This document shows, piece by piece, positions 11,240 through 63,600 of a stretch of DNA of 64,000 nt. The position numbers and the translations under genes were made by a program. Under the pieces are notes generated by a model that searched no databases, was not told the origin of the DNA, and saw only the letters and a list, made by a program, of their open reading frames with translations. Origin of the DNA: Gammaproteobacteria bacterium. Lineage in GTDB: Bacteria > Pseudomonadota > Gammaproteobacteria > GCA-001735895. The number at the start of each line of letters is the position of its first letter. Positions within the stretch are counted from its first letter, which is position 1. Where the stretch lies: assembly GCA_050298595.1 (NCBI GenBank), contig JBNKUM010000075.1, forward strand, positions 29,597 to 93,596. Direction: 5' to 3'.

Positions 11240-12508
11240 ATGGAAAATAATATTTTTGAGTTACAGTACGCGATAGACACTTTTTACTTTCTGGTGATGG
11301 GCGCACTTGTTATGTGGATGGCAGCTGGTTTTGCCATGTTAGAAGCCGGACTGGTTCGTGCAAAAAATACTACTGAAATCCTGACAAAAAATGTGGTTCT
11401 TTTCGCCATTGCCTGTACTGCTTATATGGTGATTGGTTATGCCATTATGTACGGTGGTGAATACTTCCTTTCGGGAATCGGTGATGTGGATGCAGATGCG
11501 GTATTGAAAGATTTTGCTGCTCGTGAAGATGGATTCCGTGGTGGTTCTATCTATTCAGGTGCTTCAGATTTCTTCTTCCAGGTGGTGTTCGTTGCAACAG
11601 CGATGTCTATCGTTTCTGGTGCGGTCGCTGAGCGCATGAAGCTTTGGGCATTTATGCTGTTTGCAGTTGTGATGACTGCTTTTATCTACCCTGTAGAAGG
11701 TTCATGGACCTGGGGTTCAGAAGGGTTTCTCGGTCTCAATCTGGATGACCAGTTTGGTTTTTCTGACTTTGCTGGATCCGGTATCGTACATATGGCCGGT
11801 GCTGCAGCAGCTTTAGCGGGTGTGTTATTACTGGGTGCTCGTAAAGGGAAGTATGGTGAAAACGGTCAGGTGAATGCATTCCCTGGTGCTAACCTGCCTT
11901 TAGCTACCCTGGGTACATTCATTCTGTGGTTAGGCTGGTTCGGTTTCAACGGTGGTTCAGTACTTAAATTGGGTGACATTGGCAACGCAAATGCTGTAGC
12001 CATGGTATTCCTGAATACCAATGCTGCTGCAGCTGGTGGTGTTATTGCTGCTCTTGTCGTTGCCAAGATTCTGTTTGGCAAGGCTGACCTGACCATGGCA
12101 TTAAACGGTGCTCTGGCTGGTCTGGTAGCTATTACTGCTGAGCCTTCAACCCCTGGCGCGCTGGCAGCTACCTTGATCGGTGCTTTCGGTGGTGCTCTGG
12201 TTGTTTTCTCAATCATTACTCTGGATAAGCTGAAAATTGATGACCCTGTTGGTGCGATCTCTGTACACGGTGTTGTTGGTTTCTGGGGCGTGATGGCGGT
12301 TCCCCTAACTAATGATGGCACTTCTTTTGGTGGACAATTAGTTGGTGCGGCAGCAATCTTTGGCTGGGTGTTTGTGAGCAGCCTGGTAGTCTGGTTCATC
12401 ATCAAGATGATTATGGGGCTACGTGTTACTGAAGAAGAAGAATACGAAGGTGTCGATCTCGCTGAATGCGGTATGGAAGCCTATCCTGAGTTCACTGGCG
12501 GTAAATAA
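11240..12508 (+). CDS. amtB: Ammonium transporter
   Basis: DFAGSGIVH, WFGFNGGS, IDDPVGAISVHG. Confidence 0.97.
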   Translation: MENNIFELQYAIDTFYFLVMGALVMWMAAGFAMLEAGLVRAKNTTEILTKNVVLFAIACTAYMVIGYAIMYGGEYFLSGIGDVDADAVLKDFAAREDGFRGGSIYSGASDFFFQVVFVATAMSIVSGAVAERMKLWAFMLFAVVMTAFIYPVEGSWTWGSEGFLGLNLDDQFGFSDFAGSGIVHMAGAAAALAGVLLLGARKGKYGENGQVNAFPGANLPLATLGTFILWLGWFGFNGGSVLKLGDIGNANAVAMVFLNTNAAAAGGVIAALVVAKILFGKADLTMALNGALAGLVAITAEPSTPGALAATLIGAFGGALVVFSIITLDKLKIDDPVGAISVHGVVGFWGVMAVPLTNDGTSFGGQLVGAAAIFGWVFVSSLVVWFIIKMIMGLRVTEEEEYEGVDLAECGMEAYPEFTGGK

Positions 12509-12529
12509 TTAACCTCCTTTGTATTTATT

Positions 12530-12556
12530 GCGGGTGCTTTTAGCGCCCGCTTTTTT
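12530..12556 (+). terminator. Rho-independent terminator after amtB
   Basis: gcgggtgc-tttta-gcgcccgc followed by T-tract. Confidence 0.85.
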
Positions 12557-12558
12557 AT

Positions 12559-12696
12559 GTACAGGATGTACGGGCAGATTTTTGCTCGGCTCTGGCTTCC
12601 TCGGCCCAGGCATCCTGCTTCGCCCTACCTCCTCCTTCCATGGAGTCGTGCTTCGCTCTACCATCTAAATCCCTTTAGGTGTCCTCGGCAATTGCT
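12559..12696. repeat. Nested cluster of 48-bp two-hairpin mini-elements
   Basis: Inner copy 12602-12649 lies inside outer copy 12587-12601 + 12650-12682; both align with 60875-60922. Confidence 0.8.
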
Positions 12697-12756
12697 TATA
12701 TAGCCTTGTCAGCACAGCTTTGCTATGATGCCGGCCTTTCTCTAGGGGTACTGTAA

Positions 12757-13149
12757 ATGCGTATAGTCTCTTCTTTTATTGGTTTTGCGCTGGCGATTGC
12801 GATCAGTATCTTCATTTTTGCCCCTGATCGTTTACCGGTGGGTTACGGATTTAAACCCGTACCAGTTGAGCTGGTGGTTGAAAATAATCTGGCGAGCCAA
12901 CTGGTTGAGACGGTTACCGGTAAAAGTGCTAAGAATCTGGTGATAACAAATACATCGGATGCACCTATCTACAATCTAACCTTGACCTTGATGGATGAAA
13001 ATAAGCAGATAAAGCATCAGCATATTAGCGCATTGTTGCCTGCTGCCCAGAAAGTGACTCTGGGTTGGGCTAATAAATGGTCTGTACAGGCCGGTGATCA
13101 ATTAGAAGTAAAGGCATCAGCCTATTATCAGGTGGTTTGGGCGTTATGA
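12757..13149 (+). CDS. Hypothetical protein with N-terminal membrane anchor
   Basis: 130-aa ORF, hydrophobic N-terminus, overlaps next start. Confidence 0.7.
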   Translation: MRIVSSFIGFALAIAISIFIFAPDRLPVGYGFKPVPVELVVENNLASQLVETVTGKSAKNLVITNTSDAPIYNLTLTLMDENKQIKHQHISALLPAAQKVTLGWANKWSVQAGDQLEVKASAYYQVVWAL

Positions 13150-28622: not shown

Positions 28623-29726
28623 ATGGCAATCAGCAGCCCTAAAGAAATAATTGAAGATATTCGCCAAGGTAAGATGGTCATTCTCATGGATGACGAAGAT
28701 CGCGAAAACGAAGGCGATATCCTGATCGCAGCGGATAAAATAACTCCCGAGGCCATCAACTTTATGGCTACCCATGGTCGTGGTTTGATCTGTCTGACGT
28801 TAACGGCTGAACGTTGCCAGCAGCTAAACCTGCCATTGATGGTTAGTAAAAATACAGAGAGCTTCGAAACTAACTTTACAGTGTCTATAGAAGCAGCAAA
28901 GGGTATCCTGACAGGTATCTCAGCGAAGGACCGTTGTCGTACCATACAGGCTGCCGTTGCAGCAGATGCAATGCCAGAAGATATCGTGATGCCGGGACAT
29001 ATCTTCCCTATCATGGCTCGCCCCGGTGGTGTACTGACCAGAGCAGGGCATACTGAAGCAGGTTGTGACATAGCCCGCATGGCCGGATTGACGCCTGCTA
29101 GTGTAATCGTAGAAATTTTAAACGATGATGGCACTATGGCACGCAGACCCCAACTGGAGATCTTTGCTGAAGAACATGGCATAAAGCTCGGCACCATCGC
29201 TGATCTTATTGCTTACCGATATGCCAATGAAAAGACCATAAAGAGAGTGGATGAATCACCAATACAGACTCCTTTCGGTGAATTCAAGGTTGTTATTTTT
29301 GAAGATTTAATCGATGGCGATATGCATTTCGCACTTATCAAAGGCGACATTGATCCGGATGAAGCAACTCTGGTGCGTGTAGTACATACTCAAAATGCAC
29401 TGGTCGATTTATTACAATCTGGTGATAAGACATGGACCCTGCCGAATGCTATGCAAAAGATCGCGGATGAAGGTGGCGTGCTAGTTATACTGGCCAGTCA
29501 GGAAACCAATCAATCGGTGCTGTATAAAATCCACAAACTCTGTTCAAGAGAGGTTGCGCCAGCAAATACACCAACTCCAGATCAGTTCAATCAGGTCGGT
29601 GCCGGTTCACAAATTCTTTCTGATCTGGGTATCTCAAAGATGCGTCTGTTGACATCCACCTCTCAGCGTTATCATGCCCTGTCCGGTTTTGGTCTTGAGG
29701 TGGTTGAATATATCTGCGAACACTGA
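28623..29726 (+). CDS. ribB: DHBP synthase fused to a degenerate GTP cyclohydrolase II domain (RibBX type)
   Basis: [20 protein letters not shown]; C-terminal domain lacks the Zn-binding cysteines. Confidence 0.88.
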
Positions 29727-53895: not shown

Positions 53896-54135
53896 ATGAT
53901 CGTACTTAATCAGGATTATATCGGGATCACTTTGGCCCCTAAGTTATTATCAGTTTTCAGGAGCCTTTATAAAGGTATGTTAGCTATACATCACTGGTTT
54001 TTTCAGGATATTACCTGCGATAAGCCAAAAGGGATGCCCTACAGTAATCGTGAATGGAATCGACACTCGGCATTTATCATGAGTCAGTACGAGCTTGGTC
54101 ATGGTAATTCTGTTAGCGGCAGAGTGAATGACTGA
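53896..54135 (+). CDS. Small hypothetical protein in nifB operon
   Basis: RBS gagg, 79 aa, overlaps nifO start. Confidence 0.5.
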   Translation: MIVLNQDYIGITLAPKLLSVFRSLYKGMLAIHHWFFQDITCDKPKGMPYSNREWNRHSAFIMSQYELGHGNSVSGRVND

Positions 54136-54550
54136 GGACGTTATTTTCTGGGAAAAGCCGGGTTGCATTGGGAATGCGCAACAGAAAGCCGTATTACGAC
54201 AGTATGGATATAAGCTAGATGTCAGGGACCTGTTAACAACGCCCTGGACAGCTGAGCAGTTGCGACCATTCTTTGCCGATAAGTCCGTGAATGAGTGGTT
54301 TAATCAGTCTGCACCAGATGTTAAATCAGGAGTTATTAACACCGATGAATTGAGTGAAGCTGAAGCATTAGACATGATGCTGAAAACCCCCTTGCTGATT
54401 TGTAGACCTTTACTACAGGTAAACGAATTAAGGCAAAGCGGCTTTGTCGAGGGCGTGGTACTCAATCATTTGAATATCAGTTTGAAAACTAATGAAGACC
54501 TGCAATCCTGTCCCATGGCTGATGATGCACCCTGTGAGGTGAATACATGA
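54128..54550 (+). CDS. nifO: ArsC-like nitrogenase-associated protein
   Basis: FWEKPGCIGN..QK, PLLICRPL. Confidence 0.82.
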   Translation: MTEDVIFWEKPGCIGNAQQKAVLRQYGYKLDVRDLLTTPWTAEQLRPFFADKSVNEWFNQSAPDVKSGVINTDELSEAEALDMMLKTPLLICRPLLQVNELRQSGFVEGVVLNHLNISLKTNEDLQSCPMADDAPCEVNT

Positions 54551-55833
54551 ATCAGCAGATAGATGTATCAGCGCATCGCAATGCGGTTGAGATCGCTGAT
54601 GATGTCTACTGGATAGGCGCGCTCGATCCTACCCTGCGCAGTTTTGATATTATTCTACGCACCGCCAATGGAACCACCTATAACTCCTACCTGATCAGAG
54701 GTAGCGAAGGTGTCGCGATTATCGATACGGTAAAAGAGAAATTTAGTCAGGAGTTTTTTGCCAGACTCGAATCTGAAGTCGATTACAGTGAAATCAAGGT
54801 TATCGTTTTAAATCATCTGGAACCTGATCATACGGGTGCCCTGCCTGAATTAATGCGGCGTGCACCACAGGCGCAGCTATATATTTCACAACGTGCAACC
54901 AGCATGTTAAAAGCACTGCTAAAACCTGAGACTCAGGAGTTTGAATACAGCACGGTAAATACCGGTGACTCTGTAAGACTGGGTAACAGGACGCTGCAGT
55001 TTTTGCATACCCCATTTCTGCACTGGCCCGATACTCAATGTACCTATCTTGAAGAGGAGCATATATTATTTTCCGGTGATGTTTTTGGCTGCCATTACTG
55101 TGATAAAAGATTGTTTAACGATCGCGTCGGCGATTTTCGTTTTTCCTTTGATTACTACTACGCTCACATCATGCGTCCCTTTAAAAAGCATGTAATGGAT
55201 GCATTAAAGCTGATTGAGCCATTAAAGATTAAACAGATCGCTCCCACGCACGGACCGATACTGCGCGAACGGCCACGACGCTATATCACCCATTACCGGG
55301 AGCTATCCACATCCAGCCTGACACGGGAGATTGGATATAACGATGATAAATCAGTGATTATTTTTTATATGAGCTCTTACGGTAATACCGCAAAAATGGC
55401 CGATGAAATTAGCGAAGGAGCCAGCAGTATCGAGGGTGTTCGCGTATCACTATACGATCTCGAAGGCGGAGAGATTGACCCCTTTGTTGACCTGATAGAA
55501 GAAGCTGATGCCCTGTTGTTTGGCTCTCCAACCATTAATGGCGATGCAGTAAAACCGGTATGGGATTTATTATCATCACTGGCAGTGGTGAATCTGAAGG
55601 GAAAGATAGGTGCAGCATTTGGCTCCTACGGATGGAGTGGAGAAGCAGTGCAGATGATTGAAGACAGGATGAGTGGTCTAAAAATGACCATCCCTAAAAA
55701 AGGTCTACGAGTAAAATTAATTCCAACTAATGAAGAGCTGGGTGAATGTAGAGACTTCGGAAAATTTATCGCTGAGTTTCTAACGGGTAAATCGGGAGAA
55801 AATAAGGTAATAGATTTTGCAGATCTGGGATAA
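54547..55833 (+). CDS. fprA: Flavodiiron protein (class A, FprA)
   Basis: GTTYNSYLI, NHLEPDH, LHWPD, PTHG, flavodoxin domain with AFGSYGWSGEA. Confidence 0.92.
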   Translation: MNQQIDVSAHRNAVEIADDVYWIGALDPTLRSFDIILRTANGTTYNSYLIRGSEGVAIIDTVKEKFSQEFFARLESEVDYSEIKVIVLNHLEPDHTGALPELMRRAPQAQLYISQRATSMLKALLKPETQEFEYSTVNTGDSVRLGNRTLQFLHTPFLHWPDTQCTYLEEEHILFSGDVFGCHYCDKRLFNDRVGDFRFSFDYYYAHIMRPFKKHVMDALKLIEPLKIKQIAPTHGPILRERPRRYITHYRELSTSSLTREIGYNDDKSVIIFYMSSYGNTAKMADEISEGASSIEGVRVSLYDLEGGEIDPFVDLIEEADALLFGSPTINGDAVKPVWDLLSSLAVVNLKGKIGAAFGSYGWSGEAVQMIEDRMSGLKMTIPKKGLRVKLIPTNEELGECRDFGKFIAEFLTGKSGENKVIDFADLG

Positions 55834-55878
55834 GCAGTAATTTTTTTAACATTAAAATCAACTTTAAAGGTATAGGAA

Positions 55879-56163
55879 ATGGCGAAGGGTAAAATAACTT
55901 TTGAAGATATCGATCAAACCGTGAATGTACCTGCAGGTACGCGCGTGATCGAAGTATCAGAAAAAATAGGTGCAGGTATCATCTATGGTTGTCGTGAAGG
56001 TGATTGTGGTACCTGTATTATGGAAGTCACAGAAGGCTGGAATAACCTGACGACACCTTCAGTACTGGAAGAAAAAGTACTCAAGGAAAATATGGCTGGA
56101 CGTCATAACCGCCTTGCCTGTCAGGCTCAAATTTTAGGCGACTGCAAGGTGAAGCCAACCTGA
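55879..56163 (+). CDS. [2Fe-2S] ferredoxin
   Basis: CREGDCGTC..RLACQ. Confidence 0.9.
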   Translation: MAKGKITFEDIDQTVNVPAGTRVIEVSEKIGAGIIYGCREGDCGTCIMEVTEGWNNLTTPSVLEEKVLKENMAGRHNRLACQAQILGDCKVKPT

Positions 56164-56182
56164 TTGATAGGGAGAATGAATT

Positions 56183-56539
56183 ATGCCATTAGTGACATTT
56201 AGTAATCCTGAATACAAGGATAAAACCGTATATGCCGTTGCCGGTAGTTTTACCGATACCGTACTGAAAATTGCAAAAACCAATAAGATCCCTGTCAAAT
56301 TTGAATGTGGAGATGGGGAGTGCGGAAGCTGTGCCATAAAGGTCAAATATCTGAGTAACAATACGCCTATGGGTTATCATCTGGAAGAAAAGGAAAAAAC
56401 CGTATTAAGCGAACTGGGAAAAATCAGCAAAGAAGAAATGGAGCAAATGATCGTCGATGATTTGCCCAGTACATGGAGACTTGCTTGCCAGTTTATTCCT
56501 CGCGATGAAGACGTGTTGGTAGAATACGAGGCCATGTAA
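56183..56539 (+). CDS. FeSII/Shethna protein II-like [2Fe-2S] ferredoxin
   Basis: AVAG, FECGDGECGSC, EK.VL..LGK, DLP.T.RLACQ..DED.LVE recall Azotobacter FeSII. Confidence 0.78.
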   Translation: MPLVTFSNPEYKDKTVYAVAGSFTDTVLKIAKTNKIPVKFECGDGECGSCAIKVKYLSNNTPMGYHLEEKEKTVLSELGKISKEEMEQMIVDDLPSTWRLACQFIPRDEDVLVEYEAM

Positions 56540-56543
56540 TTTC

Positions 56544-57128
56544 ATGTTGAGATCGGTTAGTCAAGTGAGTCAGTTTATTACGCCAGAGCAAGTTTATGAA
56601 CGATTGATGCGCGCACGTCAGGGGCATGAAATTGAAGACACTCTGGCGCGTATGCTTGCCTCATGGACCTGTTGTGAAGGCGCATTACCCGACTGGCTGG
56701 GCCTAACAGAAGACAATTTCTTACGCATGATGCAAAAACATTTTCCATCCTTTGATCTATCTGAATTTAATAACCCTGGAATTCCTTTAGACCTGGATCG
56801 TATGGACGAGGTTGATGACCTTAGAAAGTTACTCCTGCAATCCTGTCCAGAAACTGATGAATCGAAGTTATGGATGCTGGATATTCTGATCGCTGGCTGT
56901 CTGGGTAACGATCACCTGTGGCAGGATCTTGGATTATGGGAACGTGCAGATCTAAGCAAATTGATGTTGCAAAATTTTGCACCATTGGCTGAAAGAAATG
57001 TTAAAGATATGAAGTGGAAAAAATTCCTCTATAAACAACTGTGTGAAGCAGAAGGGATTTACACCTGCCGAGCCCCTAGTTGTGAAGTCTGCGTCGATTA
57101 TGATGTCTGCTTTGGGCCAGAAGATTAA
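56544..57128 (+). CDS. nifQ: Molybdenum-processing protein
   Basis: DHLWQDLGL, NVKDMKWKKFLYKQLC, CRAPSCEVC..Y..CFG. Confidence 0.93.
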   Translation: MLRSVSQVSQFITPEQVYERLMRARQGHEIEDTLARMLASWTCCEGALPDWLGLTEDNFLRMMQKHFPSFDLSEFNNPGIPLDLDRMDEVDDLRKLLLQSCPETDESKLWMLDILIAGCLGNDHLWQDLGLWERADLSKLMLQNFAPLAERNVKDMKWKKFLYKQLCEAEGIYTCRAPSCEVCVDYDVCFGPED

Positions 57129-58017
57129 ACAGCAAAATTCAATATCAGTAAAACAGCGCGCAACAGGTGCGTATCTAGGCCTGGCAATCGGTGATGCACT
57201 GGGTGCAACCACTGAGTTTATGACACCGTCTGAAATAAGGCTCAAACATAAACAACATAATAAGATCATTGGTGGCGGGTGGTTAAATCTAAGGCCCGGC
57301 AAGGTCACTGATGACACAGAAATGACCCTCGCACTTGGTGAAACCATTATTCAAAACCAGGCAGTTATTGCTGAAAAAGTAGCGCAGTCATTCAGTGACT
57401 GGATGCGCAGCAAACCCGTCGATATCGGCCATACCGTAAGGCGCGGTATCATACAGTTTCGCAACAACGGTACAACTGAAGTCCCCGAAAATGAACACGA
57501 TGCCGGCAATGGCGCCTGCATGCGCTGTTTGCCAATTGCGCTTTATCACTGGAACAAACCGCTGGAGCAAATGCTACAGGCCAACAGAATTCAATCACAT
57601 GTTACACATCACAGCCCGGTAGCCGATGCAGGTACCGAAGCTGTATTGCAAATGATCACCTGTGCATTGAATGGCGGCAGCAAGACAGAGATGCAGCAGA
57701 TCGCAGATGCATTGGTAGATAAGCACAAAATCTATCGTTACGACCAGAAGCGGCAGGAAAACCCCAGCGGCTGGATCGTAGAAACCCTGAAGGTGGTATT
57801 CCAGGCGTTTTTCGAGAACCAGAGTTTTTATGACATTCTGGTTGATGTGGTGAATAGGGGCGGTGATGCCGATACTACCGGAGCAATAGCAGGGATGTTG
57901 GCTGGTGCCTGTTATGGGCTGGATGAGATTCCTGGACAGTGGTTAAAAGCGCTGGATAAGGAGGTTAGGGTGGATTGTGAGCGGCAGGCTTTGGGGTTGA
58001 TTGGGAGTCCTATATAA
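57100..58017 (+). CDS. draG: Dinitrogenase reductase-activating glycohydrolase
   Basis: GDALGATTEF, GGGWL, TDDTEM, AGNGACMR, NRGGDADTTGA; nif context. Confidence 0.9.
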   Translation: MMSALGQKIKQQNSISVKQRATGAYLGLAIGDALGATTEFMTPSEIRLKHKQHNKIIGGGWLNLRPGKVTDDTEMTLALGETIIQNQAVIAEKVAQSFSDWMRSKPVDIGHTVRRGIIQFRNNGTTEVPENEHDAGNGACMRCLPIALYHWNKPLEQMLQANRIQSHVTHHSPVADAGTEAVLQMITCALNGGSKTEMQQIADALVDKHKIYRYDQKRQENPSGWIVETLKVVFQAFFENQSFYDILVDVVNRGGDADTTGAIAGMLAGACYGLDEIPGQWLKALDKEVRVDCERQALGLIGSPI

Positions 58018-58235: not shown

Positions 58236-59614
58236 TTAAAGATCATTCAGAGGGCTTGAAGTCTTGCCATTAGAAAAATTAGCCAGATGAGTGTAAATCA
58301 TCGTGGTTGAAACATCGGCATGGCCGAGTAGCGATTGAATTGTACGAATATCCATGCCTTTTTCGAGTAAGTGGGTGGCGTAACTATGTCGGAAAGTATG
58401 GCAGGTAACGCGTTTATTAATTTTCAAATCACGAGCAGTTGTGCGTACACGTTTTTGAATAGTGCTCTCGTTAATATGATGTCTCTGGATAATGCCGGAT
58501 CGGGGGTCAACGGATAATTTTTTACTGGGGAAAACATACTGCCATACCCATTGCTTGTTAGATTTTGTGTATTTGTTTTGTAAGCCAGGCGGCATAAATA
58601 CGCTACTGTAACCGGTTTTCAGATCTTCATCATGCTGTTGTTTAATGCTAGTTAGGTGCGATTTTAATTGATCAATGAGCCGAGCAGGCAACGGAACAAC
58701 TCTCTCTTTGTTCCCTTTGTTTTCCCGTACAATAATCTGATTAAAGCCAAAATCTATATCATGTACTCTAAGCCTCATCGCCTCCATAATTCTTAAACCT
58801 GCACCATAAAGAAGAGAAACGACTATCCATTGTATGCCTTCCAGAGAATTTAGAATATCTCCCACCTCTTGTCGTGTGAGAATAACTGGCAGCTTTTGGC
58901 GCGGTTTGGCACGAATAAAGTTGCTGATATCGCCAAGCTCCCGCTTACGAACCTGTTTAAAATAGTAAGACAGCGCATTTAGTGCAGCACTCTGAGTGTT
59001 TGGGGCAACCTCGAGTTGAACCGCCAGATGTTCAATAAATGAAACGACATCTGAAGGGCTAATATCATCTACTTTTTTTTCTGGAATAAATCTGAAAAAC
59101 CTTGGGTTCAGTCGGTATAAGATTTTTCAGTACGTATACTGCTGTTCTTTCTACGTATTGCTATGCGGAGTTGATCAACCTAATTGTTGAAAGCTTCATT
59201 AACGGGCGTCTTTGGCTTATAGGTCAAATCTGACCTGCTAAGTTTGACGGGGTGCTGAGAGCGGTAATGAGTATCATGCTCTGGCGGAAGGTCAACACAG
59301 GAGGATTTCCAATACTGCCAGTCAATTTCCTTATATAGAGGCGCACGGATAGATAAGAATAAATAACTTAATGCATCGATGGCCTGTTTCTTTTGCCAGG
59401 AAGCCTTGTTGGATGAGTTGATCAGCTTTTCAAGAAAAGAAGATACTGACCGGCCGGTATGTTCTTTTAATCGAATTTCCTTACTATCCCGGATAAAAGC
59501 CTCACAATGACTCACATACCAGGAGTATAGATCAGACTTGATCTGGTACTCAGAAAGTTGAGATAAGTAATTGTTCCAGAAGTATTTTTCTTTTTCAGCC
59601 TGGTTCATTGACAA
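58236..59614 (-). pseudogene. intI: Integron integrase with N-terminal extension, inactivated
   Basis: YGAGLR, HTFRHSYATHLL, LGHADVSTTMIYTH and IntI patch WQYVFPS; TAG at 59180-59182, TGA at 59108-59110, frameshift near 59103. Confidence 0.92.
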
Positions 59615-59679: not shown

Positions 59680-59722
59680 CTATATTCTAATAGTTCTGCT
59701 TCCTTCTATAAAAATGTTAGCT
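59680..59722 (+). other. Putative attI; crossover G/TTAGCT at 59716
   Basis: GTTAGCT is the exact complement of the AGCTAAC inverse core of attC1; lies between intI and the first cassette. Confidence 0.75.
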
Positions 59723-59741
59723 CTCAAAGCCGGAGAAGTCA

Positions 59742-60518
59742 TTGCAAGTTTGGATAAGAATCAGTTTTTATGGACTTCTGCTAATCACAGCAATGGTCGC
59801 ATATCTTAATTCTTCTATATCTTTATCTACGCTTCCCGAAAGCGACTGGAAAAATATCTTTTTTTCAACAATAAGCCTCATTTTCGCAATCGTAATATTT
59901 GACGGAACCATATACGCTTATGAATGGAAAAAGAAAGAGCGATCAAAACGAAGATTAAAACAAACTTTACGCCCAATATTCATAAAGATGCATGAACTGT
60001 GGTTCGGAATGGCGTATCACTCAATGAATCAAATAATGGGTGCCAACAAAGATGTCTTTTCGGAAGAGTATAAAATTGAAATATGCAAATACTTAGATTT
60101 GGAATGCGATGCCCCAGTATTAGGAAACGTGTCTTGGAGGGATTATCTATTTTCCAGTTTTGATACTTTTGAAAAAGAGCTGAACGAAATAAATGTATTG
60201 GCATTTACCATAGGCTGGGAAGATCTAGAAGATTCTATATCAAAATATTTGAATTCTGGATTCAACCAAAACATTCGAACCTATCTTTATTCAGCACGCT
60301 CTGTACCAGGTGGTCTGGTGAAACACCCCCACCTCAGAGTGTTTGGCCATCTGGGTAATACATGTTTCAGTGAGTACCTTGTATTCTTGGAAACGTTAAA
60401 CAGAATTCTTGGTTTGGATAACTTCGATTTCCACCAAGAAGAACGCTTGGAGCGCATTGGTGCAGCTAATGAATTTGGCAAATGCAGAATCCCTGCTACA
60501 CCAGTTAAGAATTTATGA
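59742..60518 (+). CDS. Integron cassette 1: hypothetical protein with two N-terminal TM segments
   Basis: AT-rich ORF between attI and attC1; ggaga RBS before TTG start. Confidence 0.75.
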   Translation: MQVWIRISFYGLLLITAMVAYLNSSISLSTLPESDWKNIFFSTISLIFAIVIFDGTIYAYEWKKKERSKRRLKQTLRPIFIKMHELWFGMAYHSMNQIMGANKDVFSEEYKIEICKYLDLECDAPVLGNVSWRDYLFSSFDTFEKELNEINVLAFTIGWEDLEDSISKYLNSGFNQNIRTYLYSARSVPGGLVKHPHLRVFGHLGNTCFSEYLVFLETLNRILGLDNFDFHQEERLERIGAANEFGKCRIPATPVKNL

Positions 60519-60542
60519 AGGCCAAGTTTATTAAGGCAAAAG

Positions 60543-60622
60543 AGCTAACAAGCGGGTCAAATACGCCCGCAAACTACGCGGGCTCGGACGCGCAAAAGAC
60601 GCGCGCCGTTTACCCTTATCGT
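60543..60622 (+). other. attC1, interrupted in its R' core (GT|TATAC, remainder at 62608-62612)
   Basis: AGCTAAC, gggtcaaa/tttaccc pairing with an extra C, GC-rich inner palindromes. Confidence 0.9.
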
Positions 60623-60734
60623 GTGTGCCGGGCATGGCACTTAACTAGAGAGGTGAAAGTCCTCTTACCAGGTATTCGCAGAGCCGAAGGTTAGTCAAAG
60701 GGCAAGGGCGTCATTGTGAGGTGGGGTCTGAAGG

Positions 60735-60783
60735 ACAGGTTTTTGCTCCTGCAAAACCTGCATTTCCACCATCCATGGTGGTC
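60735..60783. mobile_element. 49-bp two-hairpin mini-element (type A) in intron domain I
   Basis: Removal restores TCTGAAGG|AAG, as in IIC introns; near-identical copy at 62199. Confidence 0.85.
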
Positions 60784-60874
60784 AAGTCCAGGACAAAATC
60801 GCGGGGCGATGGACAAGAACCCAATATGAGGTGTGACGTATTCGGGGCCAGCGGGCACGTGACTGCTAAGCCCT

Positions 60875-60922
60875 CGGCTTTAGCCTCCTGCGTCGCACTA
60901 CCTCCTGCATCCATGCAGTCGT
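60875..60922. mobile_element. 48-bp two-hairpin mini-element (type B) in intron domain I
   Basis: 38/48 identical to 12602-12649, with a compensatory stem change. Confidence 0.8.
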
Positions 60923-61142
60923 CCATCTGCAAGCGGGATACGTTTTATAAATTGGGCGTTTACGCGATGAAAGTTAAGTGTCTTACCCCGGGAGGTCTGT
61001 ACTGTGTTGAAGGAGCAACTGACTATCGAGAGATCGATAGTGATCGCAGTACAGAAGTCAGCAGAAGGCATAATAGGTTGCACTCTCGCAACTTAAGGCC
61101 GGAACAAATCGAGGAGAGTACTCGTTGGAGAAGTATTACTAA

Positions 61143-62517
61143 ATGGCACCTGATAAGCAGATAACACTGCCTCTGGAAATTCCAGAGGGTGAATTGGTAA
61201 TGGGAGATTCAACTGAACCAAAATCCAGCTTTTGTTCATCATTACTTAATCGCATACTAGAGAGGAATAATCTAGTACGCGCGTTAAAACAGGTTCGTCG
61301 CAATAAAGGTGCTTCGGGTATCGACGGTATGAGCGTCAATGAACTACCTGATTTTCTCAAACAACACTGGCCCCAAATTCGGCAACAATTAATCGAAGGA
61401 ACCTATAGGCCAAAACCGGTTATGCGTGTCGAGATCCCCAAGCCAGATGGGCGTAGGCGAAAACTGGGCATACCAACTGCATTGGATTGACTGATCCAGC
61501 AGGCGATTGCACAGGTGCTGCAAGCAGAATGGGACGGTAACTTCCATGACAACAGTTATGGATTTCGCCCCAAACGCAATGCACACCAGGCACTCCAATA
61601 CGCGCAGGAAACGATCCGGCAAGGTAATCGCTGGGTCGTCGACTGTGATCTAGAAGCCTTCTTCGATAACGTGAACCATGATCTACTCATGACGCGTTTA
61701 AAAGACAGGCATCAAGACCCAAAGTTACTGAGATTAATCAACCGCTACCTCAAAGCGGGAGTCCAGATAGGCACTACGACAAAAGCCAGCATCCATGGCG
61801 TACCGCAGGGCGGCCCGCTGTCACCGATACTGTCTAACATCGTACTTAACCAACTGGACTGGGAACTCAATACCCGAGGGCACCGGTTCGTTCGCTATGC
61901 TGATGACTTTGTCGTATTCGTTAAAAGTCAGCAAGCAGGTGAGCGAGTCATGCATAGTCTACAGCGTTATATTGGGAATACACTCCGACTCAAAGTGAAC
62001 ACCCAAAAGAGTGCTGTAGACAGGCCCTGGAACAGAACCTTCCTCGGCTTTACGTTCAGCAGAAAGGGCTCGAAAATCAAGGTGAGTGATAAATCACTGA
62101 AGAAACTAAAAGCCACAGTCAGGCTGCTAAGCCGTCGAACGAGAGGCCATGCCTTATTACAGGTTATCGCAGACTTAAGAAAATCCCTGCTTGGTTGGAC
62201 AGGTTTATGCTCCTGCAAAACCTGCATTTCCACCATCCCGGGCGGTCAAAGCCTACTTCGATATAGCCGAAGTATTGAGTCCACTGCGAGATCTGGATAA
62301 ATGGATTCGACGACGATTGCGAAGTTACGTGTGGAAACAGTGGGGACGTAAAGGTTATAGGATGCTCAGGCGTCTGGGCGTAAAGCGGCAACTGGCCTGG
62401 AATACTGCCAAGTCAGCGCACGGCCCCTGGAGACTCAGCGCTAGTCCAGCACTTTACACTGCACTACCAAACAAGTACTTTAAGAACCTGGGGCTACCAG
62501 AGCTGGTAGCAAGATGA
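61143..62517 (+). pseudogene. Intron-encoded RT/maturase (no endonuclease domain), disrupted
   Basis: NKGASGIDG, IPKPDG..LGIPT, SYGFRP, GVPQGGPLSP, RYADD; TGA at 61488-61490 (ALD*LIQQA) and 49-bp insertion frameshift at 62199-62247. Confidence 0.92.
62199..62247. mobile_element. 49-bp mini-element (type A) in RT ORF
   Basis: Removal restores GGT TGG|AAA GCC TAC TTC (GWKAYF) and the reading frame. Confidence 0.9.
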
Positions 62518-62645
62518 ACACAAAGAGATTTGAACCGCCGTGGTACGTGATCCGTATGCCCGGTGGTGTGGGAGGAGGGGTGTCGTGAGGCATCCCCCTA
62601 TCCCGATTATACGGAATATTAGGACAAACCAACATTTGATATCTA

Positions 62646-63536
62646 ATGAAAAATCTAGAGAGACTAAGATTAATAAATCAAATCGCGGTTACCCTTCAAG
62701 AGGGGTATTCAACCAGCCAGATCAATGTATTTTTGGCTGGATTTGGAATTCCTAATTCTGGCGAACAAATTGTTCCATCTAAACGAGTGCACGTTGAAAA
62801 TAAGCTTTCAAACGAACCAGAATCAGTGATAATCAAAATTGCAAAAGAGCTGGAAATACCACTAGATCTAAAGATAGATCAGACTCATGAATCAATATCT
62901 CTTAAAGAAAACATTGTTTCTGCTCTCGAATCGAGTGACTTTTCTATCATCGATTTAATTCTAGATGAATACAATACGCCAAAGCATAGCCACTATGATT
63001 TTGATAATGCTAAGGAATACATCCTTTTCAAAATTAATGAATTATCGATAGATAAATTATATTCAATAAATGAATACCTAAATAAAAGAAAGAAAACGCA
63101 TGACAATCCCAAGCTATGGGGTAAATGCGCTCTGAGAGTATTTATTAGCCACCTATCAAAGGATAAACAGAAAGCAAAGGCCCTAGCTAAAGAGCTTAAA
63201 AATTACAATGCATCTGGATTTGTTGCGCATATTGATATTAAACCAAATGATGAGTGGCTAAAAACTATAGAGTCAGCTCTAGAGTCAATGGATGTTCTTC
63301 TTGCGCTAGTCACAGAGGGTTTTAAAGAAAGTGACTGGACGGTGCAAGAAATTGGCTTTGCCTTAGGAAAGGGTGTTCCGGTAGTTGCAATTCGAAATGG
63401 AATGGATCCCTTCGGATTTTTCGGGAAACGGCAGGCAATACCAGGAAACGGGCGCTATCCTAAAGATATTATTAATGACTTTATTTTAATAGCAAATGAA
63501 AAACTAGGTACCCACTTGAAACATGGGCCCGTATAA
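62646..63536 (+). CDS. Integron cassette 2: TIR-domain protein
   Basis: RVFISH..DK..A, FVAH.DI, ES.WT.QEIGFA (putative catalytic Glu); stop codon overlaps the attC2 inverse core. Confidence 0.85.
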   Translation: MKNLERLRLINQIAVTLQEGYSTSQINVFLAGFGIPNSGEQIVPSKRVHVENKLSNEPESVIIKIAKELEIPLDLKIDQTHESISLKENIVSALESSDFSIIDLILDEYNTPKHSHYDFDNAKEYILFKINELSIDKLYSINEYLNKRKKTHDNPKLWGKCALRVFISHLSKDKQKAKALAKELKNYNASGFVAHIDIKPNDEWLKTIESALESMDVLLALVTEGFKESDWTVQEIGFALGKGVPVVAIRNGMDPFGFFGKRQAIPGNGRYPKDIINDFILIANEKLGTHLKHGPV

Positions 63537-63600
63537 CAATGCGCTCGTGTGGGATGCTGCGCCGCGTTGCGGCTTGCACCCCCCAGCTTAAACGTTATGT
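63531..63600 (+). other. attC2
   Basis: GTATAAC ... palindromic stem ... aaacGTTATGT; GTATAAC complements the reconstructed GTTATAC. Confidence 0.9.

What the first reader, a model, noticed from the sequence alone, without database searches (positions are those of the whole stretch)
60543..62612. Group IIC intron inserted in the top-strand R' core of attC, co-oriented with the cassettes
Seen: removing 60623-62607 rebuilds ...cccttatcGT|TATAC, a GTT core whose exact complement GTATAAC is the inverse core of attC2. The intron therefore sits 1 nt past the G/TT crossover, on the cassette-coding strand, right after the attC stem-loop. Known: described IIC-attC introns (S.ma.I2, N.e.I1, Sh.ba.I2) insert in the bottom strand at TTGT/T in the inverse core, antisense to cassettes. 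Inference: this may be a mirror-image attC-targeting lineage. It would be transcribed with the array, be removable by splicing, and break the attC1 core so that cassettes 1 and 2 become one unit.
Basis: partly seen in the sequence, partly recalled or inferred. Interest (0 to 1): 0.88.

Follow-up and report, generated by a model that had tools for sequence, protein, structure and literature searches.

The report
Same-strand group IIC intron in attC
A decayed group II intron sits inside the recombination site of an integron gene cassette on the coding strand, the mirror image of the usual arrangement, but this rarer arrangement has been reported before in resistance integrons.

Summary
A 1985-nt class C group II intron (60623-62607, + strand) splits the R' core of attC1 as GT|T and points the same way as the cassettes of a chromosomal integron.

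It is not a one-off. Of 12 5' junctions in its RT clade, 11 end in CGT| and 1 in CAT|. They come from 5 places in this genome, related genomes and class 1 integrons on plasmids. All 17 3' exons start with T, and neighbouring ORFs mostly run the same way. A D1 loop (ACGUG) pairs with the exon. Canonical IIC-attC introns carry ACAAG there and pair with TTTGT on the other strand.

It is not new in kind. A top-strand, co-oriented IIC intron in an Enterobacter cloacae integron was published in 2012. The same orientation was noted again in Shewanella algae in 2022. Plasmid relatives (RT 61-77% identical) sit at exactly GT|TAGAT in the aadA1 and aacA4 attC sites.

This copy is decayed. It has an in-frame stop, a frameshifting 49-nt insertion in the maturase, and two ~49-nt insertions in domain 1. 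intI is frameshifted.

Verdict: a new member of a known kind, of modest interest.

The parts
58236..59179 (-). Integron integrase gene intI, probably a pseudogene. The N-terminal ~25 codons lie in another frame, with a frameshift near 59110-59130.
   Evidence: TIGR02249 integron integrase, 374.8 bits (cut-off 265), on 58239-59126, profile positions 28-314 of 315. Frames are shown. Pfam Phage_integrase.
59706..59712 (+). attI/cassette 1 junction, G|TTAGCT. Cassette 1 runs 59707-60621.
   Evidence: Sequence. It is the complement of AGCTAAC at 60543-60549.
59742..60518 (+). Cassette 1 ORF, 258 aa, no family match.
   Evidence: No Pfam or NCBIfam hit.
60543..60622 (+). attC1, 5' part: R'' AGCTAAC, spacer AAGC, L'' GGGT[C]AAA, two inner hairpins, L' TTTACCC, spacer TTATC, then GT of the R' core. 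It also serves as the intron's upstream hairpin plus IBS1 (CGT).
   Evidence: top-strand fold -20.1 kcal/mol, z -2.65, extrahelical C in the 5' arm.
60623..62607 (+). Group IIC intron, 1985 nt, 5' GUGUG ... GAU 3'. It equals the ~1840-nt intact form plus three ~49-nt insertions.
   Evidence: Rfam hits. Alignment to the intact L055 (1840 nt) and L056 (1838 nt) introns: 80.2% and 65.6% nt identity.
60735..60783 (+). 49-nt hairpin element ('type A') inserted in D1 at GAAGG^AAG.
   Evidence: Absent from L055 and L056. Unaligned insert in the Rfam alignment. Contigs without it occur in runs X3 and X5.
60857..60861 (+). EBS1 (ACGUG) in the terminal loop of a D1 hairpin. It pairs with the 5' exon ...CGT.
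   Evidence: Loop position from the RF02001 alignment. The loop pentamer covaries with the exon in 18 of 20 introns.
60874..60921 (+). 48-nt element ('type B') inserted in D1 just after the EBS1 hairpin.
   Evidence: Copies occur genome-wide. Contigs without it occur in X3, X5 and X13.
61143..62517 (+). Intron-encoded RT/maturase ORF, broken in two ways: an in-frame TGA at 61488-61490 and a 49-nt type A insertion at 62199-62247 (+1 frameshift inside the GIIM domain). No endonuclease domain.
   Evidence: RVT_1 6e-39; GIIM 3e-07 downstream of the insertion.
62534..62605 (+). Domain 5 (62534-62567) and domain 6 (62569-62605), with bulged A62600.
   Evidence: -39.6 kcal/mol, z -3.75.
62608..62612 (+). 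attC1, 3' part (TATAC). This is the rest of the R' core G T|T A T A C, IBS3 (T62608), and the start of cassette 2.
   Evidence: The complement GTATAAC lies at 63531-63537.
62646..63536 (+). Cassette 2 ORF, a TIR-domain protein (296 aa).
   Evidence: Pfam TIR_2 1.5e-14. Weak Thoeris/retron TIR matches, below cut-off.
63531..63600 (+). attC2: R'' GTATAAC ... R' GTTATGT.
   Evidence: The fold is weak.

Best explanation
This is a decayed copy of a class C (IIC) group II intron. It belongs to a lineage that retrohomes into the TOP strand of integron attC sites.

Inferred mechanism: the intron RNP uses the folded attC top strand as the upstream hairpin that IIC introns need. Its D1 loop EBS1 (ACGU) pairs with the last 3-4 exon bases, (R)CGT. 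These bases are the end of the L'-R' spacer plus GT of the R' core. EBS3 pairs with the next T. The intron therefore lands at GT|T, 1 nt past the integrase crossover and co-oriented with the cassettes. Canonical IIC-attC introns carry ACAAG in the same loop and land at TTGT|T on the bottom strand. Two loop bases therefore appear to set the strand.

Shown: the position, the strand, the clade, and the loop/exon covariation.

Inferred: the retrohoming pathway, and that the split R' core blocks IntI recombination at attC1, so that cassettes 1 and 2 plus the intron form one unit.

This copy is probably no longer autonomous. Its RT/maturase has a stop and a frameshifting insertion, and D1 has two insertions.
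For: Anatomy is covered.

Repeated same-type junctions: 12 5' junctions were examined in the RT clade.
- This genome: C75, C9, C53, C118 and C22.
- Related genomes: E. acroporae L013, two copies, and the Nitrospinota MAG L026.
- Same-family genomes: L083 and L067.
- Plasmids: L055 and L056.
Eleven end in CGT| and one (C9) in CAT|. Ten follow an attC-like layout of L', a 5-6 nt spacer, then GT|.

3' exons: all 17 of 17 begin with T, and 14 of 17 with TA, which gives GTTA... cores.

Orientation: the nearest upstream ORF is co-oriented at 9 of 12 5' junctions. A same-strand ORF starts 15-180 nt downstream at 9 of 10 same-family 3' junctions.

Unambiguous polarity controls: in class 1 integrons the intron lies on the cassette strand. 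The aadA1 attC reads GTCTAAC...CTCAAGCGT|intron|TAGATGCAC, and the aacA4 attC reads ...GTCAAACGT|intron|TAGATG.

Mirror controls: L057 (blaIMP-4) and L059 (dfrA12-orfF) are antisense to the cassettes and read ..AGCTTTGT|GTACGCC. An ORF-less copy of that type sits antisense on C74 of this same genome.

EBS1: 18 of 20 introns show at least 3 contiguous pairs. The mean is 3.45 against 1.07 in shuffles, and 0 of 2000 shuffles reach it.

Tree: the 10-row clade has 99/95 support, and the canonical pair falls elsewhere.
Against: - The AU test does not reject a single clade of top-strand plus canonical attC introns (p 0.229), and the class C backbone is unresolved. Independent origin of the two attC specificities is therefore not shown.
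- For five clade rows (L033, L040, L063, L065, L066) only the 3' junction is known. Their 'top-strand' label is inferred.
- One E. acroporae copy (L013 at 3602) has an opposite-strand ORF upstream.
- The C22 and L013-1335 flanks are not clearly attC.
- The downstream R''-complement test is weak: an exact 7-mer in 5 of 18 loci against 2 of 18 for a reversed control.
- The sequences are related, so the shuffle statistics overstate independence.
- Nothing was measured on splicing, mobility or IntI activity.
- Read evidence is contigs only, and they reach just 26-28 nt into the intron.
Confidence: 0.85

Rival explanations
1. This is an opportunistic off-target event. An ordinary terminator-homing IIC intron mistook one attC hairpin for a terminator, and there is no attC-specialised lineage.
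For: IIC introns need only a hairpin plus 3-5 exon bases. The clade's nearest outgroup, L050, sits after a terminator-like hairpin and T-run (CTCTTTC|). Relatives at about 50% RT identity all sit after hairpin-plus-T-run sites. The C22 and L013-1335 flanks are not clearly attC.
Against: Ten of 12 5' junctions in the clade fit the attC layout, and 11 of 12 end in CGT. All 17 3' exons start with T, and 14 of 17 with TA, as a GTTA core requires. These junctions come from this genome, seven other genomes of the family, a Nitrospinota MAG, and two unrelated class 1 cassettes.
Confidence: 0.07
2. The attC polarity was misread. The + strand is really the bottom strand, so this would be a normal IIC-attC insertion.
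For: attC sites are imperfect palindromes.
Against: - intI and attI lie to the left, and all three cassette ORFs are on the + strand.
- The extrahelical base is in the 5' arm of the intron-sense strand, as in the aadA1 top strand. In the canonical controls L057 and C74 the extra base is in the 3' arm.
- The exon is TCGT, not TTGT, and EBS1 is ACGUG, not ACAAG.
- The RT falls outside the L057/L059 pair.
Confidence: 0.03
3. This is an assembly artefact. A repeated intron was joined wrongly to the attC1 and cassette 2 flanks.
For: The intron is repeated, with 5' fragments on four other contigs. Intron depth exceeds flank depth in runs X1 and X3. Contigs break inside the intron. The junction contigs reach only 26-28 nt into it. 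The contig ends 1.4 kb downstream.
Against: Both junction contigs occur in two runs with 0 differing letters. The two flanks rebuild a complete attC whose R' core is the exact complement of attC2's R''. The same junction type occurs in relatives.
Confidence: 0.04

Closest known systems
Group IIC intron with top-strand attC target in class 1 integrons (Rodriguez-Martinez, Nordmann & Poirel 2012, J Bacteriol 194:150). I equate this with the introns seen here in IncC plasmids (pVb0267, pKC-Na-R1, pR148) and, separately, in Proteus penneri pPp47.
   Same: Class C. Same orientation as the cassettes. Insertion at (R)CGT|T in the R' core of attC (aadA1: CAAGCGT|TAGAT; aacA4: CAAACGT|TAGAT). Same EBS1 loop ACGUG. 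Same RT clade (99/95). RT identity to this window is 61.2% (IncC type) and 76.7% (pPp47).
   Different: The plasmid copies are intact (1838-1840 nt; 441-444 aa ORF) and sit in mobile resistance integrons. This copy is 1985 nt, broken, and sits in a chromosomal integron beside nif genes. I could not read the 2012 paper (not held). That its intron is the aadA1-attC intron of L056/L062 is my inference from the array content and from what PMC7923331 and PMC9229058 say.
Group IIC-attC introns (S.ma.I2 type). Controls here are L057 (blaIMP-4 attC) and L059 (dfrA12-orfF).
   Same: Class C. They target integron attC sites, use the folded attC as the hairpin, and insert at GT|T of a GTT triplet with IBS3 = T.
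   Different: They use the bottom strand, at R'' rather than R', and are antisense to the cassettes. The exon is TTTGT, the EBS1 loop is ACAAG, and the 5' end reads GUACG. They separate a gene from its own attC. The RT falls outside the clade in the free tree, although an AU test does not reject a union.
Terminator-homing class C introns. Here these are the Peribacillus, Spirochaetes and Bryobacteraceae relatives, L016-L034, L011 and L050.
   Same: RNA architecture, En-less RT, a hairpin plus short IBS1 target, and the same EBS1 loop position.
   Different: Their targets are a GC-rich hairpin plus T-run (..TTTTC|..TTTTG|) with matching EBS1 (GAAA, CAAU). There is no link to attC.
IS1111-attC insertion sequences. 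Cited in PMC9229058 (passage seen); otherwise recalled.
   Same: They are mobile elements that target attC sites and disrupt them.
   Different: They are DNA transposons, not retroelements. They were not examined here.

Membership tests
Group II intron, class C (IIC) | Ribozyme domains recognised by group II covariance models. | tested here: met
   RF02001 78.7 bits (gathering score 32); RF01998 53.8 bits (gathering score 35).
Group II intron, class C (IIC) | D5 and D6 with a bulged branch-point A near the 3' end, and GUGYG...AY boundaries. | tested here: met
   D5 62534-62567 and D6 62569-62605, with A62600 bulged 7 nt from the end; z -3.75. 5' GUGUG, 3' GAU.
Group II intron, class C (IIC) | Intron-encoded RT plus maturase without an endonuclease domain, grouping with class C RTs. 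| tested here: met
   RVT_1 6e-39 and GIIM 3e-07, with nothing after them. The RT groups with hairpin-targeting relatives against two non-C outgroups at 95/95. The class label of the relatives is inferred from their targets, not from a curated database.
Group II intron, class C (IIC) | Insertion just after a DNA hairpin, with a short IBS1 and a single-base IBS3. | tested here: met
   The attC1 hairpin ends 7 nt before the junction. EBS1 ACG pairs with the exon CGT. EBS3 was not located.
IIC-attC lineage (S.ma.I2 type) | Inserted in an attC site. | tested here: met
IIC-attC lineage (S.ma.I2 type) | Bottom strand, antisense to the cassettes. | tested here: not met
   The intron is on the + strand with the three cassette ORFs, and intI lies to the left. 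The extrahelical-base position is opposite to that in L057 and C74.
IIC-attC lineage (S.ma.I2 type) | TTGT/T target at R''. | tested here: not met
   The exon is TCGT|T at R'. EBS1 is ACGUG against ACAAG in L057 and L059.
IIC-attC lineage (S.ma.I2 type) | RT inside the monophyletic IIC-attC clade. | tested here: inconclusive
   The free tree places it apart, with a terminator-homing sister at 93/86. An AU test of the union gives p 0.229. Only two canonical members were sampled.
Top-strand attC IIC introns of class 1 integrons (2012 E. cloacae type) | Same orientation as the cassettes, inserted in the attC top strand. | tested here: met
   Window. Plasmid relatives.
Top-strand attC IIC introns of class 1 integrons (2012 E. 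cloacae type) | RT and ribozyme homology to the plasmid-borne introns. | tested here: met
   RT 76.7% and 61.2% identical. Intron DNA 80.2% and 65.6% identical. Clade support 99/95.
Top-strand attC IIC introns of class 1 integrons (2012 E. cloacae type) | Splicing and mobility into attC. I recall these being reported in the 2012 paper, which I could not read. | not testable with these tools
   This copy has a broken RT/maturase and D1 insertions. The RNA-library contigs do not show a spliced junction.
Integron | intI of the integron-integrase subfamily next to an attI and an array of attC-bounded cassettes. | tested here: met
   TIGR02249 374.8 bits. G|TT junctions at 59706, 60621 and 63594, and cassette ORFs on the + strand. 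intI is frameshifted. No attC covariance model was available.

The most novel reading that the evidence does not exclude
A monophyletic IIC clade is specialised on the attC top strand. The specialisation rests on a two-base change in the EBS1 loop (ACGU against ACAA in IIC-attC). The clade's natural home is the chromosomal integrons and attC clusters of marine or salt-marsh gammaproteobacteria related to Endozoicomonas. The co-oriented introns now seen in clinical class 1 integrons (pPp47 blaIMP-4 array; IncC aadA1 arrays) were recruited from that pool. In the tree the pPp47 intron nests among the environmental copies at 100/99.
Probability: 0.45. Interest if true: 0.5.

Novelty: new member of a known kind. 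Interest (0 to 1): 0.4.

Why it matters
Group II introns in attC sites have been proposed to help build cassettes, and they alter cassette expression and mobility. Nearly all described cases are antisense, on the bottom strand.

This locus and its relatives show that the rare sense, top-strand arrangement is the habit of a whole clade and not an accident. They also point to a simple determinant, EBS1 pairing with the spacer-GT of R', which can be tested directly.

A sense-strand intron can in principle be spliced out of the array transcript. It would then freeze cassettes at the DNA level without silencing downstream genes.

The environmental copies also hint at where the introns of some carbapenemase and VEB-type integrons came from. 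The copy itself is a decayed relic, so the locus is an example and not a new system.

Tried and rejected
Literature. The 2012 E. cloacae paper and the two Leon & Roy 2009 papers are not held. I rely on what PMC7923331, PMC3001079 and PMC9229058 say about them. Supplementary figures (PMC9229058 Fig. S2; PMC7923331 additional files) are closed and may show the exact junctions. A search for 'group II intron' + integron + Endozoicomonas found 0 papers in the held library.

Reads. No contig joins 60622 to 62608, so neither an empty site nor a spliced RNA was seen. With contigs only, this says nothing about absence. Junction contigs reach 26-28 nt into the intron, below the tool's 31-nt rule, so I do not count them as formal bridges. 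RNA-library run X13 holds pieces of a near-identical intron; this does not show transcription.

Test of the R' identity of 3' exons. I searched downstream for the exact R'' complement. It was found in 5 of 18 loci, against 2 of 18 for a reversed control. The 6-mer version was found in 10 of 18, close to chance. The test is too weak to use as main evidence.

First EBS1 guess. The stretch before GAAAG did not covary with the exons and was dropped in favour of the hairpin loop. EBS3 was not located.

Boundary searches. Regex searches missed the canonical introns, which start GUACG, and missed nested or truncated copies (L026, L040). Those were read by eye.

Translational bypass of the 49-nt insertion in the RT ORF. 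I considered this because the downstream codons are strongly conserved. No matching take-off and landing codons are visible, so independent recent insertions at a hot spot are favoured. This remains open.

Taxonomic name of the host. Not established; group codes cannot be matched to names.

Full report
WHAT IS THERE

The 3' end of the window is an integron.

- An integron-integrase gene lies on the - strand at 58236-59179. It scores 374.8 bits on TIGR02249 (cut-off 265) over profile positions 28-314 of 315. Its first ~25 codons are in another frame, so it is frameshifted near 59110-59130.
- Cassette 1 starts at G|TTAGCT (59706-59712).
- Three cassette ORFs follow on the + strand: 59742-60518 (no family), 62646-63536 (TIR domain) and 63610-> (DUF3592).
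- The contig ends at the window's end.

Between cassette ORFs 1 and 2 lies a 1985-nt group II intron on the + strand, at 60623-62607.

- Rfam group II models match at 78.7 and 53.8 bits.
- D5 and D6 fold, with a bulged A 7 nt from the 3' end (z -3.75).
- The ends are GUGUG...GAU.
- The ORF has RVT_1 and GIIM domains and no endonuclease domain.

The 5' exon is an attC (60543-60622): R'' AGCTAAC, spacer, L'' GGGT[C]AAA, two inner hairpins, L' TTTACCC, spacer TTATC, then GT. The 3' exon starts TATAC. Together they form the core GT|TATAC. Its exact complement GTATAAC is the R'' of the next attC, at 63531-63537.

WHICH STRAND

Four other lines give the polarity.

- intI and attI lie to the left of the array.
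- All cassette ORFs are on the + strand, each followed closely by its attC.
- In the fold of the intron-sense strand, the extrahelical base lies in the 5' arm (C after GGGT). The aadA1 attC top strand shows the same, GTT[C]AAGCC.
- In canonical IIC-attC controls the extra base is in the 3' arm of the intron-sense strand. These controls are L057 and the C74 copy in this genome.

The intron is therefore on the top strand and co-oriented with the cassettes, 1 nt past the G|TT crossover.

IS IT A ONE-OFF?

No.

In this genome there are four further 5' fragments of the same intron:
- C9, 95% identity over 288 nt, exon ..GCAT|
- C53, 87%, ..GCGT|
- C118, 96% over 114 nt, ..TCGT|
- C22, 54 nt, ..GCGT|

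C9, C53 and C118 follow attC-like hairpins with the same layout (L', a 5-6 nt spacer, then GT| or AT|). They sit 62-85 nt after co-oriented ORFs within runs of co-oriented ORFs.

The same genome also holds an ORF-less intron of the canonical type on C74. Its exon is ..CCTTGT|GTACGCC and it is antisense to its neighbours. This makes a useful internal contrast.

A scan of one genome per species returned 44 loci.
- The close relatives are two short gammaproteobacterial MAG contigs (97-98% RT identity) and Endozoicomonas acroporae (68-76%).
- E. acroporae has junctions ..TTTGGCGT| twice and a 3' exon |TATGTT. A Nitrospinota MAG reads ..CTTCGCGT|...|TCGGCG after an attC much like that of aadA1.
- Relatives at about 50% identity (Peribacillus, Spirochaetes, Bryobacteraceae and others) sit after hairpin-plus-T-run sites..TTTTC| or ..TTTTG|.

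A search of the family covered 79 genomes including this one, with only 3 candidates scored per genome.
- Twenty genomes matched, but many only through the small repeats described below.
- Intron-specific matches are in 7 other genomes: G010, G015, G059, G072, G073, G074 and G075.
- Their junctions add two 5' exons..GGCGGCGT| and ..CTCTACGT|, both in the attC layout with an extrahelical base in the 5' arm.
- They add ten distinct 3' exons: TACACT, TAGCCT, TAGCTG, TAGAAT, TAGCCA, TATGCG, TATCTG, TAGAGG, TATGTC and TTGGCA.
- A same-strand ORF starts 15-180 nt downstream at 9 of these 10 sites.

Overall:
- 11 of 12 5' junctions in the clade end in CGT.
- All 17 of 17 3' exons start with T, and 14 of 17 with TA.
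- The nearest upstream ORF is co-oriented at 9 of 12 5' junctions.

Exceptions and unclear cases:
- One E. acroporae copy has an opposite-strand ORF upstream.
- Two flanks (C22 and L013-1335) are not clearly attC.
- L026 has only 181 nt of upstream sequence.

ALREADY KNOWN

A tblastn search of plasmids found 9 records at 60-80% RT identity. I inspected three of them.

- Proteus penneri pPp47 (76.7% identical, intact 441-aa ORF, 1840-nt intron). The array is intI1 - blaIMP-4 - qacG2 - aacA4 - [intron, same strand] - qacG2 - qacEdelta1. The junction is ...GTCAAACGT|intron|TAGATG in the aacA4 attC.
- V. parahaemolyticus pVb0267 and S. algae pKC-Na-R1 (61.2% identical). The array is aadB - arr-2 - cmlA5 - blaOXA-10 - aadA1 - [intron, same strand] - qacEdelta1-sul1. 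The junction is GTCTAAC...CTCAAGCGT|intron|TAGATGCAC in the aadA1 attC.

These are the same site and strand as in the window.

The literature agrees:
- PMC3001079 and PMC7923331 (passages read) state that IIC-attC introns insert in the bottom strand, at TTGT/T in R'', opposite to the cassettes.
[quoted passage not shown] It cites Rodriguez-Martinez, Nordmann & Poirel 2012.
- PMC9229058 (passage) notes the same-orientation intron of S. algae KC-Na-R1.

I could not read the 2012 paper. That its intron is the aadA1-attC one is my inference.

HOW THE STRAND IS CHOSEN (INFERRED)

I aligned D1 of 22 introns with known 5' exons. In this alignment the terminal loop of one hairpin covaries with the exon. 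The hairpin is the Rfam RF02001 loop 'GCaaaacA', and in the window it lies at 60857-61.

| Intron or group | Loop | 5' exon |
|---|---|---|
| Top-strand clade | ACGUG | (R)CGT |
| Canonical L057 and L059 | ACAAG | TTTGT |
| Peribacillus | GAAAC | TTTTC |
| L011 | CAAUA | TATTG |
| L045 | AGGAG | GTCCT |
| L017 | GCAUG | CATGC |

Eighteen of 20 introns show at least 3 contiguous pairs. The mean is 3.45 against 1.07 in shuffles, and 0 of 2000 shuffles reach the observed value. The rows are related, so this overstates independence.

This confirms the 5' splice site. It also suggests that strand choice follows from the exon bases:
- The top strand of these attC sites ends ...spacer(..GC/TC)-GT|T.
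- The bottom strand ends ...TT-GT|T, because R'' is followed by AAG or AAA. In this genome it reads CTAACAAG.

PHYLOGENY

The tree is an IQ-TREE of 33 RT rows, aligned on the intact pPp47 protein, with two non-class-C outgroups.

- A clade with 99/95 support holds the window, G073, E. acroporae, pPp47, G015, G010, the IncC intron, a Hyphomicrobiaceae MAG and two Nitrospinota copies.
- Its sister is a terminator-homing intron (93/86).
- The canonical pair L057 + L059 is separate (94/81).
- pPp47 nests among the environmental copies (100/99).
- The class C backbone is unresolved.
- An AU test does not reject a union of the two attC-targeting groups (p 0.229). Independent origin of the two specificities is therefore likely but not shown.

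STATE OF THIS COPY

Against the intact plasmid introns, this copy carries three clean insertions:
- 60735-60783, 49 nt, 'type A', in D1 at GAAGG^AAG
- 60874-60921, 48 nt, 'type B', just after the EBS1 hairpin
- 62199-62247, 49 nt, type A, between codons TGG and AAA of the maturase domain, giving a +1 frameshift

There is also an in-frame TGA at 61488. Contigs of three runs read C at that position, giving CGA.

The assembly holds no other RT of this clade. Its only other group II RT is a 41%-identical one on C13.

The copy is therefore probably not autonomous, and its splicing is uncertain.

Contigs in the runs also show copies lacking the two D1 insertions. One run shows a 1467-nt ORF deletion form. 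Intron depth exceeds flank depth, so a varied population of copies exists.

CONSEQUENCES (INFERRED)

The R' core is split, leaving only GT next to unrelated intron sequence. IntI should then be unable to use attC1, and cassette 1 + intron + cassette 2 would behave as one unit bounded by attI and attC2. With intI frameshifted, the array may be frozen anyway. Because the intron is in sense, a splicing-competent copy would leave read-through expression intact. Antisense IIC-attC introns differ here: they block Pc transcription and supply their own outward promoter (PMC3001079 abstract).

VERDICT

The lineage idea is supported. The novelty claim is not, because the arrangement was published in 2012 and is present in public resistance plasmids.

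What is added here:
- a chromosomal, environmental member, with several sister insertions
- clade-level consistency of the target
- a candidate two-base determinant of strand choice

Noticed in passing
window 60735-60783 and 62199-62247; also G000 C9, C53, C74, C66, C108; loci L063, L064, L066/L082, L067, L083, L092, L013: A 49-nt two-hairpin element ('type A') always sits at ..GG^A.. sites. It occupies the same D1 site (GAAGG^AAG) in two different intron lineages. It also occupies the same RT codon junction (TGG^AAA) in copies from at least four genomes, and E. acroporae carries a diverged subfamily of the element there. The site is empty in L055, L056 and L065. The 89 codons downstream remain under strong purifying selection between two insertion-bearing copies: window against L066 gives Sd 37, Nd 4, dS 1.11, dN 0.02. 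Independent recent hits on a hot spot seem likeliest. Inheritance with trans-mobilisation, or recoding, is not excluded.
   Followed up: partly
window 60874-60921; at least 10 further copies of 35 nt or more in G000 (C80, C115, C100, C56, C51, C21, C23 and others): A 48-nt repeat ('type B') is scattered through the genome and through related genomes. In the C9 and C53 intron fragments, the intron breaks off inside this element. It is followed by a sequence shared by both contigs, which may be an insertion sequence that targets the repeat.
   Followed up: partly
window 61488: The T of the in-frame TGA stop reads C (CGA, Arg) in the contigs of runs X1, X3 and X5, at full depth. The stop is therefore specific to this copy or assembly.
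   Followed up: no
window 61076-62544 (joint in run X1): A contig in one run joins 61076 to 62544, skipping 1467 nt. This is an ORF-less derivative of the intron, at depth 66.
   Followed up: no
G000 C74, about 12500-13041 (- strand); also L092 (G072:C100): An ORF-less mini-intron of the canonical IIC-attC type (exon ..CCTTGT|GTACGCC, 3' exon |TATGCAG) lies antisense to its neighbours. The genome therefore holds both the bottom-strand and the top-strand attC intron types.
   Followed up: partly
window 59180-59614 (- strand): A 144-aa ORF lies between intI and the first cassette. It has weak similarity to the N-terminal part of integron integrases (TIGR02249 positions 20-78, E 2.5e-05; Pfam SAM-like domain, below cut-off). 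It ends with a stop directly in frame with the intI start region. It may be a duplicated or remnant N-terminus.
   Followed up: no
window 62646-63536: Cassette 2 encodes a TIR-domain protein, with weak Thoeris/retron-TIR similarity (below cut-off). It may be an anti-phage gene carried as an integron cassette.
   Followed up: no
locus L055 (Proteus penneri pPp47): The intact intron in the blaIMP-4 - qacG2 - aacA4 class 1 array nests among the environmental copies in the RT tree (100/99). This hints at a marine or environmental origin.
   Followed up: partly
window 28723-28823 (- strand): There is an Rfam match to Vibrio antisense RNA V_AS9 (55.5 bits, gathering score 50), far from the finding.
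   Followed up: no
G000 C13 (3753-nt contig): A further group II intron has an apparently intact RT, 41% identical to the pPp47 RT. It belongs to a different lineage and starts GTGCGACCGGC.
   Followed up: no
window 54128-58017: Genes for NifQ, two ferredoxins, a flavodiiron-like protein and an ADP-ribosylglycohydrolase (DraG-like) lie directly beside the integron.
   Followed up: no
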